From: Candidatus Cloacimonadales bacterium
GTDB lineage: Bacteria; Cloacimonadota; Cloacimonadia; Cloacimonadales; JAIOQZ01
Length of the DNA stretch: 64,000 nt
Reading direction: 5' to 3'
Assembly (NCBI GenBank): GCA_963662655.2
Contig: CAXXTU010000002.1
Span: 352,001 to 416,000, forward strand
Shown: in pieces, positions 43,806-52,015 of the stretch
Layout of the letters: every line of letters starts with the position of its first letter
How positions within the stretch are numbered: position 1 is the stretch's first letter
The notes under the pieces: model-generated
The model's database searches: none
What the model was told of the DNA's origin: nothing
What the model saw: the letters and a program-made list of their open reading frames with translations, nothing else
Translations under genes and position numbers: made by a program

Positions 43806-44056
43806 GGGATTAGAAAAAACGGATGGCCGGAATCGTCAATGAAAATAGAGCATGAGTAATACCAAACGTGAATCAAATCACTTCTTGTGTCTCCTGCCTC
43901 TTTTTGTTTCTCTGAATAGATGAATCACGAGATAGAATACACACGAATGTATAAAAATGGTTTACTTTACGGATTAAGAGAACAATTATACTGGAGAATG
44001 TCGATACACTTGACATATTGCTACTGAAAAGCAAGATTACCAAGGAGGTGTTAATC

Positions 44057-44680
44057 ATGTACAGAATGGACCAACAATATCTCAAAATCAAGTATTTTCG
44101 TTTTAAGCAAGCCCTTGATATAATATGTAAGATATCAGACAATCCTTCAATAATCAAGAGTGTAACAGGTCATGGAGAAACTCCGTATAATAATATTGAT
44201 TGGATGGAGCTTAAGGCCAGTAATAATATTATTTATTTTGTCGCCATTATTTCCGCATTTGAGGAGCTGTTGTCACAAATAATCAGGGAGTGTGGAGAGA
44301 AACATAAGAGAAGCAAATTGAGGAGAAAAAGCATTCGAGAGATAACAGAATTAACGTTTCAGCATCTTGTGCCTGATGGTTTCTTTTGCTCTGAAAGCTG
44401 GAAACTTATTGGTCGGTATTGGCAAATACGAAATGCAATTGTACATAACGGAGCAGATGTTGATCTTGTAAATGATGAAGTAAGAGCGTTTGTGAAGGAT
44501 AGTGAATCATTTAACGAGAAAGTTCGAATCGAAACAACTAATGGTTAAGTAACAAAAGTAACAAGCAGGTTATTTGTTACGGACCATCAATGCTTGATAG
44601 AGTTAATGAAAACAATATCAGAGATAGCTGATATACTAGTTGATAGTATTGTTAAGTGTGAATTTGAGAATAGCAGATAG
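44057..44680 (+). pseudogene. AT-rich HEPN-like protein with an in-frame TAA at 44546-44548
   Basis: AGGAGG RBS; SAFEE and RNAIVH (R-x4-H) motifs; the same frame stays open for 43 more codons to TAG 44678-44680. Confidence 0.55.
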
Positions 44681-44828: not shown

Positions 44829-44857
44829 GAAAACGCTCCCGATTTCTCGGGAGCGTT
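44829..44857 (-). terminator. Terminator of the hydrogenase operon
   Basis: 11-bp stem AACGCTCCCGA-GAAA-TCGGGAGCGTT with a short T run. Confidence 0.7.
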
Positions 44858-44884: not shown

Positions 44885-46672
44885 CTAGTGATCTTCGCAT
44901 TTGAAGCTTTCGACAACTTGGCCTTTGAATTTCTCGCGTTTGTAGTAGTGGGTATGAAGCAGCTTGTGCGCCTTGTGCGAACCCGGTTTTTCGAGGAAGT
45001 CCTGATATATCTTGGCGATCATCGGGTTGTGGTGCGAGCAGCGCTTCGGCAGATCACGGTCGTCCTGGTAGAGACTCTGGCCACGGCGAGCGCGCATGGC
45101 GAGGCTGCTACCGAACGGCTGTCCGCCGCCGCCGACGCAACCGCCGGGGCAAGCCATCACTTCGACGAAGTGATATTCGCTCTTGCCGGTTTCGTCGATC
45201 TGCTTCTGGATTTTTTCCATAAGCTTGCGTGCGTTGCCGAGTCCGTGCGCGACAGCGACCTTGAGGGTCAGATCGTCGTTGATCTTCACGGCTGCTTCCT
45301 TGACGCCTTCCATACCGCGGACGGCGGTGATGTTGACATCGGGGAGGTCGTTTCCGGTTACGAGGTAGTACGCGCTACGAAGAGCAGCTTCCATAACACC
45401 GCCGGTTGCGCCGAAGATGGTCGCGGCGCCGGTGTGCTCGGAGAGCTCGAGGCACACGTCATGATGATCAGGAAGATTCGGGAAATCGATACCGGCTTCA
45501 TTGATCATGCGTACCAGTTCACGGGTGGTGAGGACCACGTCGACATCCTGGTAGCCTGAATCAGCCATTTCTTCACGCTGGCACTCGAATTTCTTCGCGG
45601 TACAGGGCATGATGGAAACGGAGAAGATTTTGGAGGGATCGATACCTTTGAGTTCTGCGTAGTAGGTCTTGGCGAGTGCGCCCATCATCTGCTGCGGTGA
45701 TTTCGCGGTGGAAACGTTGCAAGCGAGACGCGGGAAATAGGTTTCCATGAACTTGATCCAGCCCGGTGAGCAGGACGTGATACACGGAAGGTTCTTGGTT
45801 CCGGCGACGATACGTCCGACAACCTCGGTTCCCTCTTCCATGATGGTGAGGTCGGCCGAGAAGTTTGTGTCGAAGATCGAGTCGAATCCGAGCATTTTCA
45901 GCGCGGTGTACATCTTGGCGGTAGTAACGGCGCCAACGCCCATGCCCCATTCTTCACCGAGTGAAGCACGGATGGATGGAGCTTCCTGAACGACAACGTG
46001 CTTCTCGGGATCCAGAAGAGCATCCCATACACGTTCGGTGTCGTCTTTCTCATGAAGCGCGCCCGTCGGGCAGTAAACGGTACACTGACCGCAGTTGACG
46101 CATGCGCTGCTGGCCATTCCCAAGGAGAGAACGGTGTCGACGTGTGCATCGAATCCGCGTTCGGCGAACGTAAGCGCGTTCACGGTCTGAATGTCGTTAC
46201 AAACCTGAATACAGCGACCGCAGTTGATACATTTGTTTACGTCACGGATGATCGAAACGCTGCTGTAATCGACTGGCTTTTTTTCCAGGATTTTCGGGAC
46301 GGCGTTGGGATCGATATCCATGGTGTAGGCGATGCTCTGGAGCTCGCATTTTCCGTTTGCCACACAGGTGGGGCATGCGACGTCGTGGTTCGAGAGGATC
46401 ATCTCGATGACGGTCTTGCGGATGGAGCGCAGCATCTTGCTGTTTGTCTTGATCTTCATTCCGTTCCAAACCGGAGTGCTGCAAGCACGCTTCGGAGTCG
46501 GGGTGCCTTCGATCTCGACAACGCAAACACCGCAGGCGGCGGTGGGCTTCAGATCCTCGTGGTAGCACAAGGTCGGAATATTGATGCCGACTTTCTTTGC
46601 GGCTTCAATGATGGTCGTACCCTGGGGTACTTCCGCCATGATTCCATTTATTTCAACAGTTACATTGCTCAT
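44885..46672 (-). CDS. hydA: [FeFe]-hydrogenase catalytic subunit, group A (HydA/HndD type)
   Basis: N-terminal 2Fe-2S, His-ligated 4Fe-4S and 2x4Fe-4S motifs; H-cluster motifs TSCSPGW, MPCTAKKFE and EVMACPGGCVGGGGQP. Confidence 0.96.
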   Translation of the reverse strand: MSNVTVEINGIMAEVPQGTTIIEAAKKVGINIPTLCYHEDLKPTAACGVCVVEIEGTPTPKRACSTPVWNGMKIKTNSKMLRSIRKTVIEMILSNHDVACPTCVANGKCELQSIAYTMDIDPNAVPKILEKKPVDYSSVSIIRDVNKCINCGRCIQVCNDIQTVNALTFAERGFDAHVDTVLSLGMASSACVNCGQCTVYCPTGALHEKDDTERVWDALLDPEKHVVVQEAPSIRASLGEEWGMGVGAVTTAKMYTALKMLGFDSIFDTNFSADLTIMEEGTEVVGRIVAGTKNLPCITSCSPGWIKFMETYFPRLACNVSTAKSPQQMMGALAKTYYAELKGIDPSKIFSVSIMPCTAKKFECQREEMADSGYQDVDVVLTTRELVRMINEAGIDFPNLPDHHDVCLELSEHTGAATIFGATGGVMEAALRSAYYLVTGNDLPDVNITAVRGMEGVKEAAVKINDDLTLKVAVAHGLGNARKLMEKIQKQIDETGKSEYHFVEVMACPGGCVGGGGQPFGSSLAMRARRGQSLYQDDRDLPKRCSHHNPMIAKIYQDFLEKPGSHKAHKLLHTHYYKREKFKGQVVESFKCEDH

Positions 46673-46691
46673 TGACAATCTCCCTTTGTGG

Positions 46692-48254
46692 TTATGCCTT
46701 AATCCGGTTCAAGAAATCTTCCCGGAAGTTCTCAATCGCGCTTTTCACGGGCATGATCAAGGATTGACCCAATGCGCAGAACGAAGTTTTGAACATTGCA
46801 TCAGCGATGATGATCATCTGATCCAGGTCTTCTTCGGTTGCTTTGCCATTACGTACTTTCTTAACAAGCCGGGTGAGCTGCTGCGTACCGAGGCGGCAGG
46901 GGCTGCAGCGTCCGCATGATTCGTGACGGAAGAACTTGATGATCGAGTAGAGCATCTCGACCATGTCGGTGTCTTCGCCCATCACGAGGATAGCGCCGGA
47001 GCCAAGGACAGCTGCGTATTCGGCAAGGCTGTTATAGTCCATTTTTACATTCAGAAGCGAATCGGGCAGAATCACGCCGGCCGCGCCACCCACGAGGGCG
47101 GCTTTGAAGCGCTTGCCGTCTTTCATTCCGCCACCGAAGTCGTTGATGATGCTACGAAGTGTGGTTCCCATGGGAACTTCGGTCAGGCCGGGAGTTGCCA
47201 CGTCGCCAAGGATCGTGTAAACCTTGGTTCCAGGTGATTTTTCCGGTCCGATCTTGGAGTACCACTCACCGCCTTTAGCGATGATGGCGGGAACGTTCGC
47301 CAGCGTCTCGACGTTGTTGACAACGGTCGGTTTTTTCCAGGCGCCTTCGACACCCGGGAACGGCGGCTTGCTGCGCGGGATACCGCGGTTACCTTCCATC
47401 GATTCGATCAGAGCGGTTTCCTCGCCGCACACGTATGCGCCAGCGCCGATCTTGATGTCGATGTCCAGACTGAAGCCGGATCCGAAGATGTTCTCTCCGA
47501 GGATGCCGTAATCCTTGGCCTGTGCGATTGCTTTGAGTGTTCGTTCAATACAGAGCTTGTATTCGCCACGGATATAGATGTAGGCCTTGCTTGCGCCGAC
47601 AGCGTATGCACAGAGCATGACGCCTTCGAGCAATTTGTGCGGGTCGCCTTCCATGATCAGACGATCTTTGAAAGTTCCCGGCTCGCCTTCATCCGCGTTG
47701 ACAACAACCAGCTTCTCCTTGGCTTCGAGAGGAGCGGTAAAACTCCACTTGAGGCCGGTGGGGAATCCGGCGCCGCCACGACCGCGAAGACCTGACTTCT
47801 TCACCTCGTCAACGATGTCCATGGGCTTCATGCCGGTGAGGGCTTTTTCCCAGGCTTCGTAACCGCCAACCGCAAGGTATTCGTCGATGTTTTCGGGATC
47901 GATGATACCGGAGTTGTTGAGCACGATACGTTTGTCGTATGCGAAGTCGTACTGTCCTGATTCGGGTGCGTTGTAGATCAGGCGTTTCAGAGGTCTTCCC
48001 TTGAGGAAGTGCTCTTCAACGATTTCAGGGATATCTTCAGCTTTGACGTTGGCGTAGGTCGTGTTGTCCGGATAGACCTGGAAGCAGACGCCTTTTCCGA
48101 AATAGCCCAGGGGGCCGGTCTCGAGAATCGATACTTCTTCTTCCAGTTCCTTACGGGCAAGCTCGCTGCGAAGCGCGTTGAGCACTTCTTTCACGCCAGC
48201 CTGTACGGCAGATTCATCCACTCCGACGAGCACGTGTGTTCTGAAATATTTCAT
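46692..48254 (-). CDS. Diaphorase subunit 2 (NuoF/HydB-like), short, non-bifurcating-type signature
   Basis: GRGGAGFPTG, ADEGEPGTFKDR, KVY, GGAAG, ESCGRCSPCR..C; no C-terminal ferredoxin domain; N-terminal domain lacks its Cys ligands. Confidence 0.9.
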   Translation of the reverse strand: MKYFRTHVLVGVDESAVQAGVKEVLNALRSELARKELEEEVSILETGPLGYFGKGVCFQVYPDNTTYANVKAEDIPEIVEEHFLKGRPLKRLIYNAPESGQYDFAYDKRIVLNNSGIIDPENIDEYLAVGGYEAWEKALTGMKPMDIVDEVKKSGLRGRGGAGFPTGLKWSFTAPLEAKEKLVVVNADEGEPGTFKDRLIMEGDPHKLLEGVMLCAYAVGASKAYIYIRGEYKLCIERTLKAIAQAKDYGILGENIFGSGFSLDIDIKIGAGAYVCGEETALIESMEGNRGIPRSKPPFPGVEGAWKKPTVVNNVETLANVPAIIAKGGEWYSKIGPEKSPGTKVYTILGDVATPGLTEVPMGTTLRSIINDFGGGMKDGKRFKAALVGGAAGVILPDSLLNVKMDYNSLAEYAAVLGSGAILVMGEDTDMVEMLYSIIKFFRHESCGRCSPCRLGTQQLTRLVKKVRNGKATEEDLDQMIIIADAMFKTSFCALGQSLIMPVKSAIENFREDFLNRIKA

Positions 48255-48709
48255 TACTCACCTCCCCGGATTCGATCAATGATCTTTGCGACTTTTTCCT
48301 CGGTAAGATCGCCGTAAACGTCCTCGTTAATCATCATAACCGGTGCGTTTCCGCAAACACCAAGGCATGCACACAGCTCAAGTGTGAAAAGCCCGTCTTT
48401 GGTGGTCTCGCCTTCTTTGACATCCAGAACCTTCTCGAGTTGCTTGAGAATCTTCTCGGATCCCTTCAGGAAGCATGGTGGAGATTCGCAAAGACGAATG
48501 ATGTTCTTACCGCGAGGCTTTGTGCTGTACATGGTGTAGAACGTCAATACGCCGTAAATGTGATTCACGGGTACGCGAAGATATTCACTGACTTTGGCCA
48601 CCGCTTCTTCACTGATATACTGCTGAGGATGCGTATCCTGAATATCGTGAAGAATATAGATCAGGTTTTCCTTGTCAGGCGAATACTTCTTGAAGATTTC
48701 TTCGTACAT
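48254..48709 (-). CDS. 2Fe-2S subunit 2 (NuoE/HydC-like)
   Basis: TFYTMYS, CESPPC...CLGVC; stop overlaps the next ATG (TAATG). Confidence 0.9.
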   Translation of the reverse strand: MYEEIFKKYSPDKENLIYILHDIQDTHPQQYISEEAVAKVSEYLRVPVNHIYGVLTFYTMYSTKPRGKNIIRLCESPPCFLKGSEKILKQLEKVLDVKEGETTKDGLFTLELCACLGVCGNAPVMMINEDVYGDLTEEKVAKIIDRIRGGE

Positions 48710-48740
48710 ATCCACTCCTTATCTATGATTTACGTGAGGT

Positions 48741-50588
48741 CTAGTCCTCTTCTTCAACCAGCGTCTTTTTGTATTCGCGGTATTCGGGGCTGATGCCGGG
48801 AAGAAGATGCACGGCGTGAACCGGGCACACTTCCTTGCAGTTACCACATTTGACGCATGGTATCTGATCAATGATATACTTGTCCTGGCGATTTCCGGAG
48901 ATGCACTGAACCGGGCAGTTCTTCGCGCAGAGTCCACAGCCGATACACTTGTCGGTATCGATGCTGAAGTGGATCAACGGCAGGCAGACTTTCGCGGGGC
49001 AGGTCTTCTCGCGGATGTGCGCTTCATACTCGTTACGGAAGTAGCGAATCGTGCTAAGAACCGGGTTCGGAGCCGTCTGACCAAGTCCACAGAGTGACGT
49101 GGTGCAGATCGACTTACCAAGGCGTTCCAGTTCTTCGATGTCGCCTTCTTCGCCTTCGCCGCTGGTGATCTTTTCCAGAAGCTTGTGCATCTGTTTCAGA
49201 CCGAGGCGGCAGGGGGCGCATTTTCCGCATGATTCATCGACGGAGAATTCCAGGAAGAATTTAGCCACGTTGACCATACAGTTGGAATCGTTCATCACGA
49301 TAACACCGCCTGATCCCATCATAGCGCCTTTTTCCTTGAGTGATTCATAGTCGATCTTCACATCGAGATGTTCGTTGGTGAGGCAACCGCCGGAAGGTCC
49401 GCCAAGCTGAACGGCTTTGAACTTACGACCATCGGAAATTCCGCCGCCAACCTCGAAGATCAGTTCGCGAAGGCTGATGCCCATCGGAACCTCGACGAGG
49501 CCGGTGTTGTTCACGTCGCCGGTGAGTGCGAACACCTTTGTACCCTTGCTGGTCGGAGTACCCATGGAAGCAAACCAGTCGGCTCCCTTGAGGAAGATGC
49601 GAGGCAGGTTCGCCATGGTTTCCACGTTGTTGACCAGGGTGGGTTGTCCCCAGAGACCGGACTGAGCCGGGTACGGGGGTTTCGGGGTTGGCTGTCCGCG
49701 TTTTCCTTCGATGGAAGCGATCAGCGCGGTCTCTTCTCCGCAGACGAATGCGCCTGCGCCGGTGCGAACTTCCGCATCGAACGAGAAGCCGCTATCGAAG
49801 ATGTTTTCTCCAAGCAGACCGAATTCTTTTGCCTGCTCGATCGCCAGCTTGATGCGGCGGATTGCCAAAGGATACTCGGCACGGATGTAGAAGAAGCCTT
49901 TCGATGCGCCAACGGCGTAAGCGGCGATCATCATGCCTTCCAATACCCTGTGCGGGTCGCCTTCGAGCAGCGAGCGGTCCATGAACGCTCCCGGGTCGCC
50001 CTCGTCGCCATTACAGATGACGTACTTGGGATCGCCTTGTGCGTTCAACACGTGCTGCCACTTGATGCCGGTGGGGAATCCACCGCCGCCACGGCCACGC
50101 AAGCCGGATTCTTTAACGAGATCGACAGCTTTCTGCGGGGTCATGCCGGTCAACACGTTTCCGAGCGCTTCATATCCGCCCAATGCTATGTATTCCTCGA
50201 CTTTTTCGGGATCGAGGTACCCGCAATTCTCAAGAGCAACCTTGATCTGCTTGCGGTAGAAGGGAATGTCTTCCTTGGTCGGCAAAACTTTCTCGTCTTC
50301 TTCAAGCATGAGCCGTTTTACGGGACGGCCCTTGATGAAATGCTCTTCGATGATCTCTTCGACGTCTTCCACCGTCACTTTGCGGTAGAAAACGCCTTCC
50401 GGATAAATCATCATGACGGGACCGTAGTCGCACGGGCCCATACATCCGGTTTCGATCAGGTTGATTTCCTGAAGCAGATTGCGTTCTTTCAGTTGATCCT
50501 TAAGCGCTTGTTTGATTTTAAGCGCACCGGCTGAAACGCAACCCGAGCCACAGCAAATCAGGACATCGATACGTTTCAGTGACATCAT
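48741..50588 (-). CDS. hydB: Diaphorase subunit 1 (HydB/HndC-like), full-length, bifurcating-type signature
   Basis: N-terminal CCGSGC...CMGPC, GDEGDPGAFMDR, KVF, GGPSGG, ESCGKCAPCR, HIREKTCPAKVC and two CxxCxxCxxxCP motifs. Confidence 0.93.
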   Translation of the reverse strand: MMSLKRIDVLICCGSGCVSAGALKIKQALKDQLKERNLLQEINLIETGCMGPCDYGPVMMIYPEGVFYRKVTVEDVEEIIEEHFIKGRPVKRLMLEEDEKVLPTKEDIPFYRKQIKVALENCGYLDPEKVEEYIALGGYEALGNVLTGMTPQKAVDLVKESGLRGRGGGGFPTGIKWQHVLNAQGDPKYVICNGDEGDPGAFMDRSLLEGDPHRVLEGMMIAAYAVGASKGFFYIRAEYPLAIRRIKLAIEQAKEFGLLGENIFDSGFSFDAEVRTGAGAFVCGEETALIASIEGKRGQPTPKPPYPAQSGLWGQPTLVNNVETMANLPRIFLKGADWFASMGTPTSKGTKVFALTGDVNNTGLVEVPMGISLRELIFEVGGGISDGRKFKAVQLGGPSGGCLTNEHLDVKIDYESLKEKGAMMGSGGVIVMNDSNCMVNVAKFFLEFSVDESCGKCAPCRLGLKQMHKLLEKITSGEGEEGDIEELERLGKSICTTSLCGLGQTAPNPVLSTIRYFRNEYEAHIREKTCPAKVCLPLIHFSIDTDKCIGCGLCAKNCPVQCISGNRQDKYIIDQIPCVKCGNCKEVCPVHAVHLLPGISPEYREYKKTLVEEED

Positions 50589-50598
50589 TCCCCCTTCG

Positions 50599-50961
50599 TT
50601 ATTCGGATGAGACTACGTATTCGGAGACGACGTTTCCGTTAACGAGATGCTCGACGACAACTTTACGTGCCTTTTCGGGGTTCATATTGCCATAAGTGAT
50701 TTTGGGCTTGCCTTCTTCGAGCACGTCAACGATTGGCTCCATCGAAGAAAGGCCCTTCTCGCCGGTCTGGGTCACAACGACGTCTTTGATCTGACGTTTC
50801 GAAACTTCCTCGAGGAAAGTTTTCATCACTTCGCGTGCGCCCATGGCAATACCGGATGTACCCATACCGACAACGACTTTCAGACGGTAATCGGCATTGC
50901 GCAGGTTCATGTCCTGCTGTGCTTTTTCCCGGATCTTTCTGAGTTCTTCCAAGGTTTTCAT
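50599..50961 (-). CDS. HydD/HndB-like thioredoxin-fold subunit with no cysteines
   Basis: MKTLEEL.KIRE, VGMGTSGIA.GA and QTGEKGLSSMEP align to the usual TCGIAAGA / TGC.G.C..EP. Confidence 0.85.
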   Translation of the reverse strand: MKTLEELRKIREKAQQDMNLRNADYRLKVVVGMGTSGIAMGAREVMKTFLEEVSKRQIKDVVVTQTGEKGLSSMEPIVDVLEEGKPKITYGNMNPEKARKVVVEHLVNGNVVSEYVVSSE

Positions 50962-51530
50962 CAGAGTTCCTCCATTTTCGTATTTGTTACGCCTTCATTA
51001 ATAATCTCGGTTAAGAAGCCGATCACGTCCGGATAGGTTATCGGAACGCCATCGAGCTCCTGTTTGATCTCTCTTGTGTCCAGTTCGAAATCCCAGGCAC
51101 CGTTGAATCCTTCCCTTCTTATATAGAACAGGAAGTCGTTCTCCGGATGCCCGATAATTGCGCCCAGCATGGTATCCGCTAGGTTACCCACCGGCATGCG
51201 ATCGATGTGGTCGAACTTGAAATGGGCTACTATCTCGGTTCCCTCGCCCGGGGCGCTGGCGACGGTAAAATCACCGCCGCAGGCTTCCGCGTTTTGCTTG
51301 AAGAGCGGAATCCCCAGCCCGATCTTTTTGATACGCTCACTCTTGGTCGTGTAAAACGGATTGAGTGCGTTCTCTACCGTCTCGCTGTCCATGCCGCAGC
51401 CATTATCTTTCACGCGGAACGATATGCGGTTCCGGGGAACGCTCGCTTTGATCTCGATTTCGACCAGCGATGCCCCAGCACGAACTGAGTTTTCGATCAT
51501 ATCAAGAAGATGGAGGGATATATCCTGCAT
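50961..51530 (-). CDS. Stand-alone HATPase (histidine-kinase-like ATPase), 189 aa
   Basis: MQDISLHLLD..ENS..AGA, DNGCGM, PFYTTK, GLGIP, HIDR.P.G; start and stop overlap both neighbours. Confidence 0.88.
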   Translation of the reverse strand: MQDISLHLLDMIENSVRAGASLVEIEIKASVPRNRISFRVKDNGCGMDSETVENALNPFYTTKSERIKKIGLGIPLFKQNAEACGGDFTVASAPGEGTEIVAHFKFDHIDRMPVGNLADTMLGAIIGHPENDFLFYIRREGFNGAWDFELDTREIKQELDGVPITYPDVIGFLTEIINEGVTNTKMEEL

Positions 51531-52015
51531 TAAGCCCTGTACTTGTCGATGATTGCTTTCAGTTTCTTGCGACTGTCGATACGGCCGTAGGTCTCTTCGC
51601 CAATCACGAAAACCGGCGCCAGGGAGCAAGCTCCAACGCAGCGAACGGCAGTGAGGGTAAAGAGGTTGTCTTCAGTGGTTTCGCCCATCTTGACTTTCAA
51701 TTCGTCTTCCAGCATCTGAACCAGGCGGTCGGCCCCCTTTACGTAGCAGGCGGTTCCCATACATACGTTAACAAGGTTTTTACCACGCGGTTTCATGGAG
51801 AAGAAGTTGTAGAAGGTCACGACACCGTAGATATGGTTGATCGGGACATCGAGACCCGTCGCAATGAATTCAATGACTTCCGGCGGTAAGTAGCCGAAAA
51901 TCTCCTGCGCTTTGTGCAAGACTTCGATGAGAGGATTGCGGATGTGCTTCTTCTCGTCGATGACGGCTTGCAGCTCTTCGTAGAGTTTGTTTTGCGGTGC
52001 AGGGTGTGCGTTCAT
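51530..52015 (-). CDS. hydC: 2Fe-2S subunit 1 (HydC/HndA-like)
   Basis: LHKAQ..FGYLP, GVVTFY, CMGTAC...RCVGAC.LAP. Confidence 0.92.
   Translation of the reverse strand: MNAHPAPQNKLYEELQAVIDEKKHIRNPLIEVLHKAQEIFGYLPPEVIEFIATGLDVPINHIYGVVTFYNFFSMKPRGKNLVNVCMGTACYVKGADRLVQMLEDELKVKMGETTEDNLFTLTAVRCVGACSLAPVFVIGEETYGRIDSRKKLKAIIDKYRA

What the first reader, a model, noticed from the sequence alone, without database searches (positions are those of the whole stretch)
44885..52015. One [FeFe]-hydrogenase catalytic subunit with two diaphorase modules: bifurcating-type and non-bifurcating-type
Seen: a tightly packed operon hydC1-HATPase-hydD-hydB1-hydC2-hydB2-hydA, three junctions overlapping stop/start, with only one hydA. 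HydB1 (615 aa) has GDPGAFMDR, KVF, GGPSG, the N-terminal 2Fe-2S cysteines, the H..C..C site and 2x[4Fe-4S]. HydB2 (520 aa) has GEPGTFKDR, KVY, GGAAG and lacks all those extra metal sites. Established: these same positions distinguish beta subunits of electron-bifurcating HydABC (Thermotoga maritima type) from non-bifurcating NADH-only enzymes of syntrophs (Syntrophomonas wolfei Hyd1ABC type); the rule is predictive, not absolute. Inference: HydA may swap partners, giving a ferredoxin+NADH confurcating enzyme at high H2 and an NADH-only enzyme at the low H2 of syntrophic growth, or may form one dual-flavin complex. I do not know of a characterised enzyme with this layout.
Basis: partly seen in the sequence, partly recalled or inferred. 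Interest (0 to 1): 0.88.

Follow-up and report, generated by a model that had tools for sequence, protein, structure and literature searches.

The report
One hydrogenase, two NADH modules
This seven-gene cluster from a Cloacimonadota bacterium encodes one iron-iron hydrogenase and two different NADH-handling subunit pairs, which likely both plug into the same enzyme, so the cell would make hydrogen either from NADH alone or from NADH plus ferredoxin; nobody has tested this layout.

Summary
Observation confirmed: hydC1-HATPase-hydD-hydB1-hydC2-hydB2-hydA, three stop/start overlaps, a 3' hairpin and one hydA. HydB1 has every bifurcating-type mark tested; HydB2 has the non-bifurcating marks. The genome has five NuoEF-type modules but four docking alpha subunits and no FdhA, so HydB1/C1 has no alpha of its own. 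Both modules plus HydA or FdhA occur in 44 of 53 good Cloacimonadales genomes. The tandem recurs in WOR-3, Mcinerneyibacteriota, Aminicenantes, Coatesbacteria and PVC, and all four direct module-alpha adjacencies exist. Stand-alone HydB1 copies stay under purifying selection. Best reading (0.6): both modules dock on the same HydA arm, giving co-expressed NADH-only and NADH+ferredoxin enzymes, possibly hybrids on a HydA dimer. A transcriptional H2 switch is unsupported. The HydB2 orthologue is in print as non-bifurcating (Losey 2020); eight paper searches found no description of the double layout, and one paper says Cloacimonadota apparently lack a ferredoxin-dependent hydrogenase. This scan noted the same cassette before on other DNA.

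The parts
51530..52015 (-). hydC1, NuoE-like [2Fe-2S] subunit of the bifurcating-type module (ATG at 52015 after AGGAG; ORF open from GTG 52021)
   Evidence: (PF01257)
50961..51530 (-). stand-alone HATPase_c (GHKL) protein, 189 aa; start overlaps the hydC1 stop
   Evidence: PF02518
50599..50961 (-). hydD, 120-aa thioredoxin-like protein with no cysteine (GMGTSG and TGEKG where homologues have Cys); fused to HydB1 in G043
48741..50588 (-). hydB1, 615-aa NuoF-like flavoprotein of the electron-bifurcating (BfuB) type with all five cluster sites
48254..48709 (-). hydC2, NuoE-like [2Fe-2S] subunit (CESPPC type) of the non-bifurcating module (ATG 48709; ORF open from GTG 48715)
46692..48254 (-). hydB2, 520-aa NuoF-like flavoprotein of the non-bifurcating type; one 4Fe-4S site and a cysteine-free N-terminal thioredoxin-like domain
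44885..46672 (-). hydA, 595-aa group A [FeFe]-hydrogenase catalytic subunit with NuoG-like N-terminal Fe-S arm and His-ligated cluster motif; no C-terminal thioredoxin domain
44832..44857 (-). strong hairpin just after the hydA stop, likely terminator
   Evidence: -26.7 kcal/mol, z -7.2

Best explanation
The cluster encodes one HydA and two complete NADH modules that likely dock interchangeably on HydA's N-terminal iron-sulfur arm, giving a predicted ferredoxin+NADH confurcating form (HydA-B1-C1, likely with the cysteine-free HydD) and a predicted NADH-only form (HydA-B2-C2), both likely made from one transcript. HydA is likely a dimer like its solved homologues, so mixed dimers with one module on each arm are expected, each arm working largely on its own. 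At the low H2 kept by a partner, both forms would evolve H2: B1 disposes of ferredoxin with NADH 1:1, and B2 vents surplus NADH. Above tens of Pa only B1 could evolve H2, and B2 would idle or take up H2. Shown: genes, motifs, conservation, module surplus, adjacencies. Inferred: docking, co-transcription, dimer, activities, direction.
For: G000 has five NuoF-like modules (the sixth hit is RnfC) and four alpha-type arms, three already beside their own B/C genes; FdhA is not found. All four direct adjacencies occur: B1-HydA (G019; its HydA nests in the same clade), B1-FdhA (G004, G007, G014, G024, G056), B2-HydA and B2-FdhA. In G031, G026, G053 and G025 the B1 module has no adjacent alpha, no FdhA and no stand-alone HydA paralogue. 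Stand-alone B1 stays intact, with dN/dS 0.056 (G031/G026) and 0.080 (G036/G018). In G031 it is followed by selA-selB where G007 has FdhA-selA. The same split recurs in PVC: 5 of 5 genomes have the B1 orthologue elsewhere, with no alpha hit within 1.5 kb in the three loci not cut by a contig end. Solved HydABC are dimers joined through a His-ligated cluster, one protomer is sufficient, and cross-talk was modelled as blocked (PMC10021017); HydA has H98/C102/C105/C111 (597-aa numbering). Equilibrium H2: 3-67 Pa for NADH alone, about 2-15 kPa confurcating. Rnf, PFOR, HydE-like and HydG-like genes are present.
Against: No binding, expression or activity data. Both modules are kept together in 44 of the 48 good genomes that have either, and their trees group the same phyla (distance rho 0.84 over 56 pairs, largely shared ancestry). 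That is tighter than freely optional partners need be and fits a fixed assembly. G036 and G018 have an extra stand-alone HydA paralogue that could serve B1. The Pfam search used to count alpha arms in relatives found only 2 of G000's 4, so the surplus is firm only for G000. Co-expressed forms would short-circuit ferredoxin to NAD+ through H2 at high H2 (inference), and no control mechanism was found.
Confidence: 0.6

Rival explanations
1. Obligate dual-flavin complex: B1C1, B2C2 and HydD assemble with HydA (or FdhA) in one fixed particle, for example an asymmetric A2-B1C1-B2C2-D. The cysteine-free HydD and the cysteine-free N-terminal domain of B2 would be structural adaptors, and conformational gating would choose the branch.
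For: Both modules in 44 of 48 genomes with either; tandem order in the deepest Cloacimonadota branch sampled and in five other lineages; B2 keeps a conserved 95-aa Cys-free domain (53% mean identity), while the non-bifurcating betas shown from Losey's table are 402-434 aa; HydD is present twice in many split genomes, before B1 and before C2.
Against: G019 has C1-HATPase-D-B1-HydA and no B2 found (93% complete). G006 has a shortened B2 and FdhA and no B1 orthologue (98%). HydD is fused to B1 in G043, which ties it to B1 and not to a bridge.
Confidence: 0.22
2. HydA works only with B2C2 (an NADH-only enzyme, as in print for Ca. Cloacimonas). B1C1D belongs to another alpha in trans: FdhA where present, otherwise the second HydA or the Nfn-like or AOR-like alpha.
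For: B1-FdhA adjacency with C2-B2-HydA elsewhere, including the sister genus (G004, G007); hydA and fdhA are nearly always directly preceded by hydB2, and B2 is duplicated when both alphas are present while B1 stays single; extra stand-alone HydA paralogues in some genomes.
Against: No FdhA in G000, and each other alpha has its own B/C; B1-HydA adjacency in G019; B1-C2-B2-FdhA and D-C2-B2-FdhA are common too, so neither module is specific to one alpha.
Confidence: 0.12
3. B2 uses NADP(H), so the two modules on HydA form an H2-linked Nfn/Stn-like transhydrogenase (NADPH versus NADH + ferredoxin) and there is no short-circuit.
For: It would remove the futile-cycle problem; related cassettes gained an NADPH-type FAD domain fused to B1 (1013-1022 aa).
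Against: B2 keeps CGEET (E278, E279, T280 invariant in 41 of 41), identical to the NAD-using solved enzymes. That the second Glu excludes NADP is recalled from E. coli NuoF work and was not found in the library.
Confidence: 0.06

Closest known systems
Electron-bifurcating HydABC(D)/Bfu family: A. woodii (PDB 7Q4V), T. kivui (8A6T), T. maritima (7P5H), A. mobile NiFe-HydABCSL (7T2R); Schut 2022 PMC9304861, Katsyv 2023 PMC10021017
   Same: HydB1 best matches 7T2R_B and 7Q4V_B with identical signature motifs; HydA best matches 7Q4V_A; a hisK and a hydD gene also lie in the A. mobile operon.
   Different: A second, non-bifurcating C-B pair lies between hydB1 and hydA; HydD has no Cys; one alpha for two modules.
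[quoted passage not shown]
   Same: HydB2 has T/K/Y and no GGPSG. Losey's supplement lists a 520-aa Ca. Cloacimonas beta (YP_001741249: T, K, Y, GGAAG) as non-bifurcating.
   Different: HydB2 is about 100 aa longer than the other listed non-bifurcating betas that I saw and is encoded beside a full bifurcating module, which the passages I read do not mention.
Hydrogenedentota BfuABC sub-types I and II (PMC11406978, in silico)
   Same: Describes a BfuB with a DPD_II/FAD tail and a non-bifurcating BfuB lacking B3-B5, nearly always co-occurring with a bifurcating type.
   Different: Treated there as separate clusters, each with its own BfuA; a shared alpha is not described in the sections read (its supplements were not read).
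Hnd (HndABCD) of Desulfovibrio fructosovorans, the label given to Cloacimonadota clusters in PMC12590816
   Same: Four gene types C, D, B, A.
   Different: HndB carries a 2Fe-2S cluster and HndC lacks that domain (recalled); here HydD has no Cys, HydB1 has its own cluster, and there are two C-B pairs.
NAD-dependent FdsABG formate dehydrogenase beta subunit (PDB 6VW7_B, 520 aa)
   Same: Same length, aligned over residues 6-514 of HydB2; a non-bifurcating diaphorase type.
   Different: HydB2 scores higher against HydB (550 bits) than against 6VW7_B (385 bits), and some orthologues keep an H..C..C remnant, which suggests descent from a bifurcating beta.

Membership tests
Bfu/HydABC bifurcating (HydA-B1-C1) | Beta subunit with all five Fe-S sites (B1-B5) | tested here: met
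   Cys/His positions; Pfam; criterion; residue-to-cluster labels are by homology
Bfu/HydABC bifurcating (HydA-B1-C1) | A/E232, M234, F367, GGPSG | tested here: met
   A201, M203, F353, G396-G400 invariant in 41 of 41; criteria; identical to solved enzymes
Bfu/HydABC bifurcating (HydA-B1-C1) | Gamma subunit with [2Fe-2S]; alpha with H-cluster and N-terminal Fe-S arm | tested here: met
Bfu/HydABC bifurcating (HydA-B1-C1) | Forms a complex and couples NAD+ and ferredoxin reduction | not testable with these tools
   needs biochemistry
[quoted passage not shown] | T/S232, K/S/A234, no GGPSG | tested here: met
   T194 and K196 invariant in 41 of 41; GGAAG, GGTAG or GGSAG
[quoted passage not shown] | Y367 | tested here: met
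   KVY in the window; F in several orthologues
[quoted passage not shown] | Beta lacks clusters B2-B5 | tested here: met
[quoted passage not shown] | Ferredoxin-independent H2 from NADH | not testable with these tools
   needs assay
Hnd-type tetramer | Fourth subunit carries a [2Fe-2S] cluster (recalled for HndB) | tested here: not met
   HydD has 0 Cys; Cys kept only in the PVC and Coatesbacteria orthologues
Nfn-Bfu/Stn transhydrogenase | Separate FAD/NADP(H)-binding domain | tested here: not met
   no Pyr_redox domain in any of the seven proteins; present in a PVC-type B1 fusion

The most novel reading that the evidence does not exclude
A widespread, old redox hub in which a bifurcating and a non-bifurcating flavin module sit on the two arms of one dimeric catalytic core (hydrogenase or formate dehydrogenase), held by cysteine-free thioredoxin-like adaptors and gated after translation by the associated ATPase/PHP signalling genes. 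One particle would tune the NADH:ferredoxin ratio of H2 or formate production.
Probability: 0.25. Interest if true: 0.88.

Novelty: new variant of a known kind. Interest (0 to 1): 0.7.

Why it matters
If right, a bifurcating and a non-bifurcating flavin module share one natural catalytic subunit. That is a matched pair for asking what makes HydB bifurcate, with the alpha held constant. It also bears on published models of Cloacimonadota, which are abundant in digesters. [quoted passage not shown] Yet 47 of 53 good genomes here carry an intact bifurcating module of this cassette. Tools that type a hydrogenase by the nearest beta gene would mislabel these clusters.

Tried and rejected
Complex prediction (HydD with HydB2 and HydB1 1-345) was not available: queue full; no verdict. 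A single-chain model of HydB2 never finished, so no fold search was run. Metatranscriptome and metaproteome supplements of PMC13082233 could not be read; they may hold B1 versus B2 abundance. Promoter scan at chance level; none of the Rex-like matches (up to 2 mismatches) lies at the cluster. HydB1 as a decaying relic was rejected by dN/dS. A 228-aa Fe-S protein at C2:2719917 was rejected as a spare alpha arm: weak hit, beside a fumarate-reductase-like flavoprotein. The first tree run timed out. In the FastTree tree the three outgroup betas fell inside the B1 group with a long-branch warning, so B1 monophyly is not shown. The HydD tree is too short to date the duplications. PMC9431212 hits were to HydDB, not HydD.

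Full report
Observation. The seven genes are present in the stated order on the minus strand, with three stop/start overlaps and gaps of 10, 31 and 19 nt and a strong hairpin after hydA. HydB1 carries all marks that Losey et al. list for bifurcating betas and matches four solved bifurcating enzymes at those motifs. HydB2 carries the non-bifurcating marks and one Fe-S site. HydA is an intact group A enzyme closest to A. woodii HydA. New here: HydD is a thioredoxin-like protein related to the N-terminal domain of beta subunits but has no cysteine, as in most orthologues. All seven genes are under purifying selection. The closest named records are Candidatus Cloacimonadales.

Own genome. There are five NuoF-like modules plus RnfC. 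A profile of 28 HydA/FdhA N-termini finds four alpha arms. Three sit beside their own B/C genes: a second HydA, an AOR-like protein and a 1136-aa Nfn-like protein (the last two labels are my reading of the sequence). FdhA is not found. One module is therefore surplus, and HydA is the only arm in its cluster.

Relatives. I hand-listed orthologues from four searches of the same 61 genomes (cut-offs B2 E<=1e-200, B1 >=900 bits, HydA >=770 bits plus one partial, FdhA E<=1e-60; two betas of 54-57% identity in G040 and G052 were not counted). Among 53 genomes at least 90% complete and at most 5% contaminated, 44 have B1, B2 and an alpha, 3 lack B2, 1 lacks B1 and 5 have none. By coordinates, 24 of the 49 genomes with both betas have them in tandem; the rest are split, some perhaps by fragmentation. 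The loci I fetched were chosen to show each layout and are not a random sample. They show the full tandem before HydA or before FdhA; B1 alone with D-C2-B2-HydA elsewhere; B1 before FdhA (five genomes fetched); B1 before HydA with no B2 found (G019); and one family with both modules and the alphas at separate places. HydD is found in 122 of 151 genomes of the phylum and is fused to B1 in G043. Against my reading: G036 and G018 also have a stand-alone HydA paralogue, and the Pfam count of alpha arms in relatives is incomplete.

Other phyla. Tandems occur in WOR-3, Mcinerneyibacteriota, Aminicenantes, Coatesbacteria and PVC. The tail of B1 varies: two 4Fe-4S, none (554 aa), or a DPD_II/FAD domain. 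Five of five PVC genomes tested that lack an adjacent B1 hold it elsewhere. B1 and B2 subtrees group the same phyla, which shows co-inheritance, not binding.

Mechanism. A beta of this family needs an alpha arm to exchange electrons (established for Bfu enzymes). All four module-alpha adjacencies exist and B1 survives loss of FdhA, so I infer that both modules dock on the same arm. Solved HydABC are dimers of self-sufficient protomers, and HydA keeps the His-ligated cluster motif, so mixed dimers are plausible. NADH alone supports 3-67 Pa H2 and confurcation about 2-15 kPa on my assumed potentials. At low H2 both forms can evolve H2, and the NADH:ferredoxin ratio need not be 1:1. At high H2 the pair would short-circuit ferredoxin to NAD+ unless B2 is restrained. 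How is unknown; the HATPase and the PHP and Fe-S genes upstream in many relatives are candidates only. Docking, co-transcription and activity are all inferred. The near-universal retention of both modules keeps an obligate complex alive (0.22).

Prior knowledge. PMC7311640 (passages; section 17; section 18 part 1 of 2; supplement passages) lists the 520-aa Ca. Cloacimonas beta as non-bifurcating; Cloacimonas occurs once per supplement file. I did not fetch that genome by name and do not claim its layout; the named Cloacimonas sp. SDB record has the tandem before FdhA (L098). PMC8892533 (passages) and PMC13082233 (passages; supplement unreadable) carry the NADH-only view forward. PMC12590816 (passages) calls the cluster Hnd. 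PMC8542988 (passages) noticed bifurcation-type subunits in a MAG whose locus here reads B1-C2-B2-FdhA (L084). PMC9304861 (passages), PMC11406978 (passages, section 7 part 1 of 2, section 8) and PMC10021017 (passages) define the family. Eight searches (the last on NADP specificity only) found no description of two modules on one alpha. The library lacks most subscription papers, so Pelletier 2008, Poudel 2016 and Dyksma 2019 were not seen. Earlier notes of this scan report the same cassette before FDH, [FeFe] and [NiFe] cores in other genomes; my reading was written before I saw them, and I did not test the [NiFe] cases.

Verdict. Real, conserved and untested; both halves are known kinds, and I did not find the shared-alpha layout in print. 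New variant of a known kind, interest 0.7.

Noticed in passing
G043:C68:11633-13822 (L169:5634-7823): HydD is fused to HydB1 in one 729-aa ORF.
   Followed up: partly
L118, L123, L128 (WOR-3): HydB1 ends at 554 aa, without the ferredoxin-docking 2x4Fe-4S tail, but keeps the other bifurcating marks.
   Followed up: no
L136, L141-L143, L145-L147: HydB1 of 1013-1022 aa; the one scanned (L146) has a DPD_II/FAD-NAD(P) tail. In the PVC and Coatesbacteria loci HydD keeps its cysteines.
   Followed up: partly
L065, L067, L069 (G013, G023, G029): C1-HATPase-B1-B2'-FdhA: two betas back to back with one gamma and no hydD; a second B2 lies in D-C2-B2-HydA.
   Followed up: partly
G000:C2:2255093-2263264: Second trimeric hydrogenase operon with a Rex-like gene in front and a sensor-type Fe-S/phosphatase pair behind (labels from my reading of the sequence); its beta has CGEGSA, recalled as an NADP-type motif.
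   Followed up: no
G000:C2:1187031-1192187: Bifurcating-type module in which the NuoE-like domain is fused behind an AOR-like N-terminal part and the alpha carries an AOR-like C-terminal part (labels from my reading).
   Followed up: no
G000:C2:909293-918994: The PHP, DRTGG-like, kinase-like and Fe_hyd_lg_C genes that precede the cassette in relatives lie about 500 kb away here; the Fe-S gene has two frameshifts in this assembly.
   Followed up: partly
G000:C2:1969257-1972345: selA and selB are present although no FdhA is found.
   Followed up: no
L150-L156: A separate clade of stand-alone 579-603 aa HydA with no B/C neighbours, in G038 directly before fdhA.
   Followed up: partly
window 44018-44548 (+): 176-aa ORF with a weak HEPN (RiboL-PSP) hit, convergent on hydA.
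   Followed up: no
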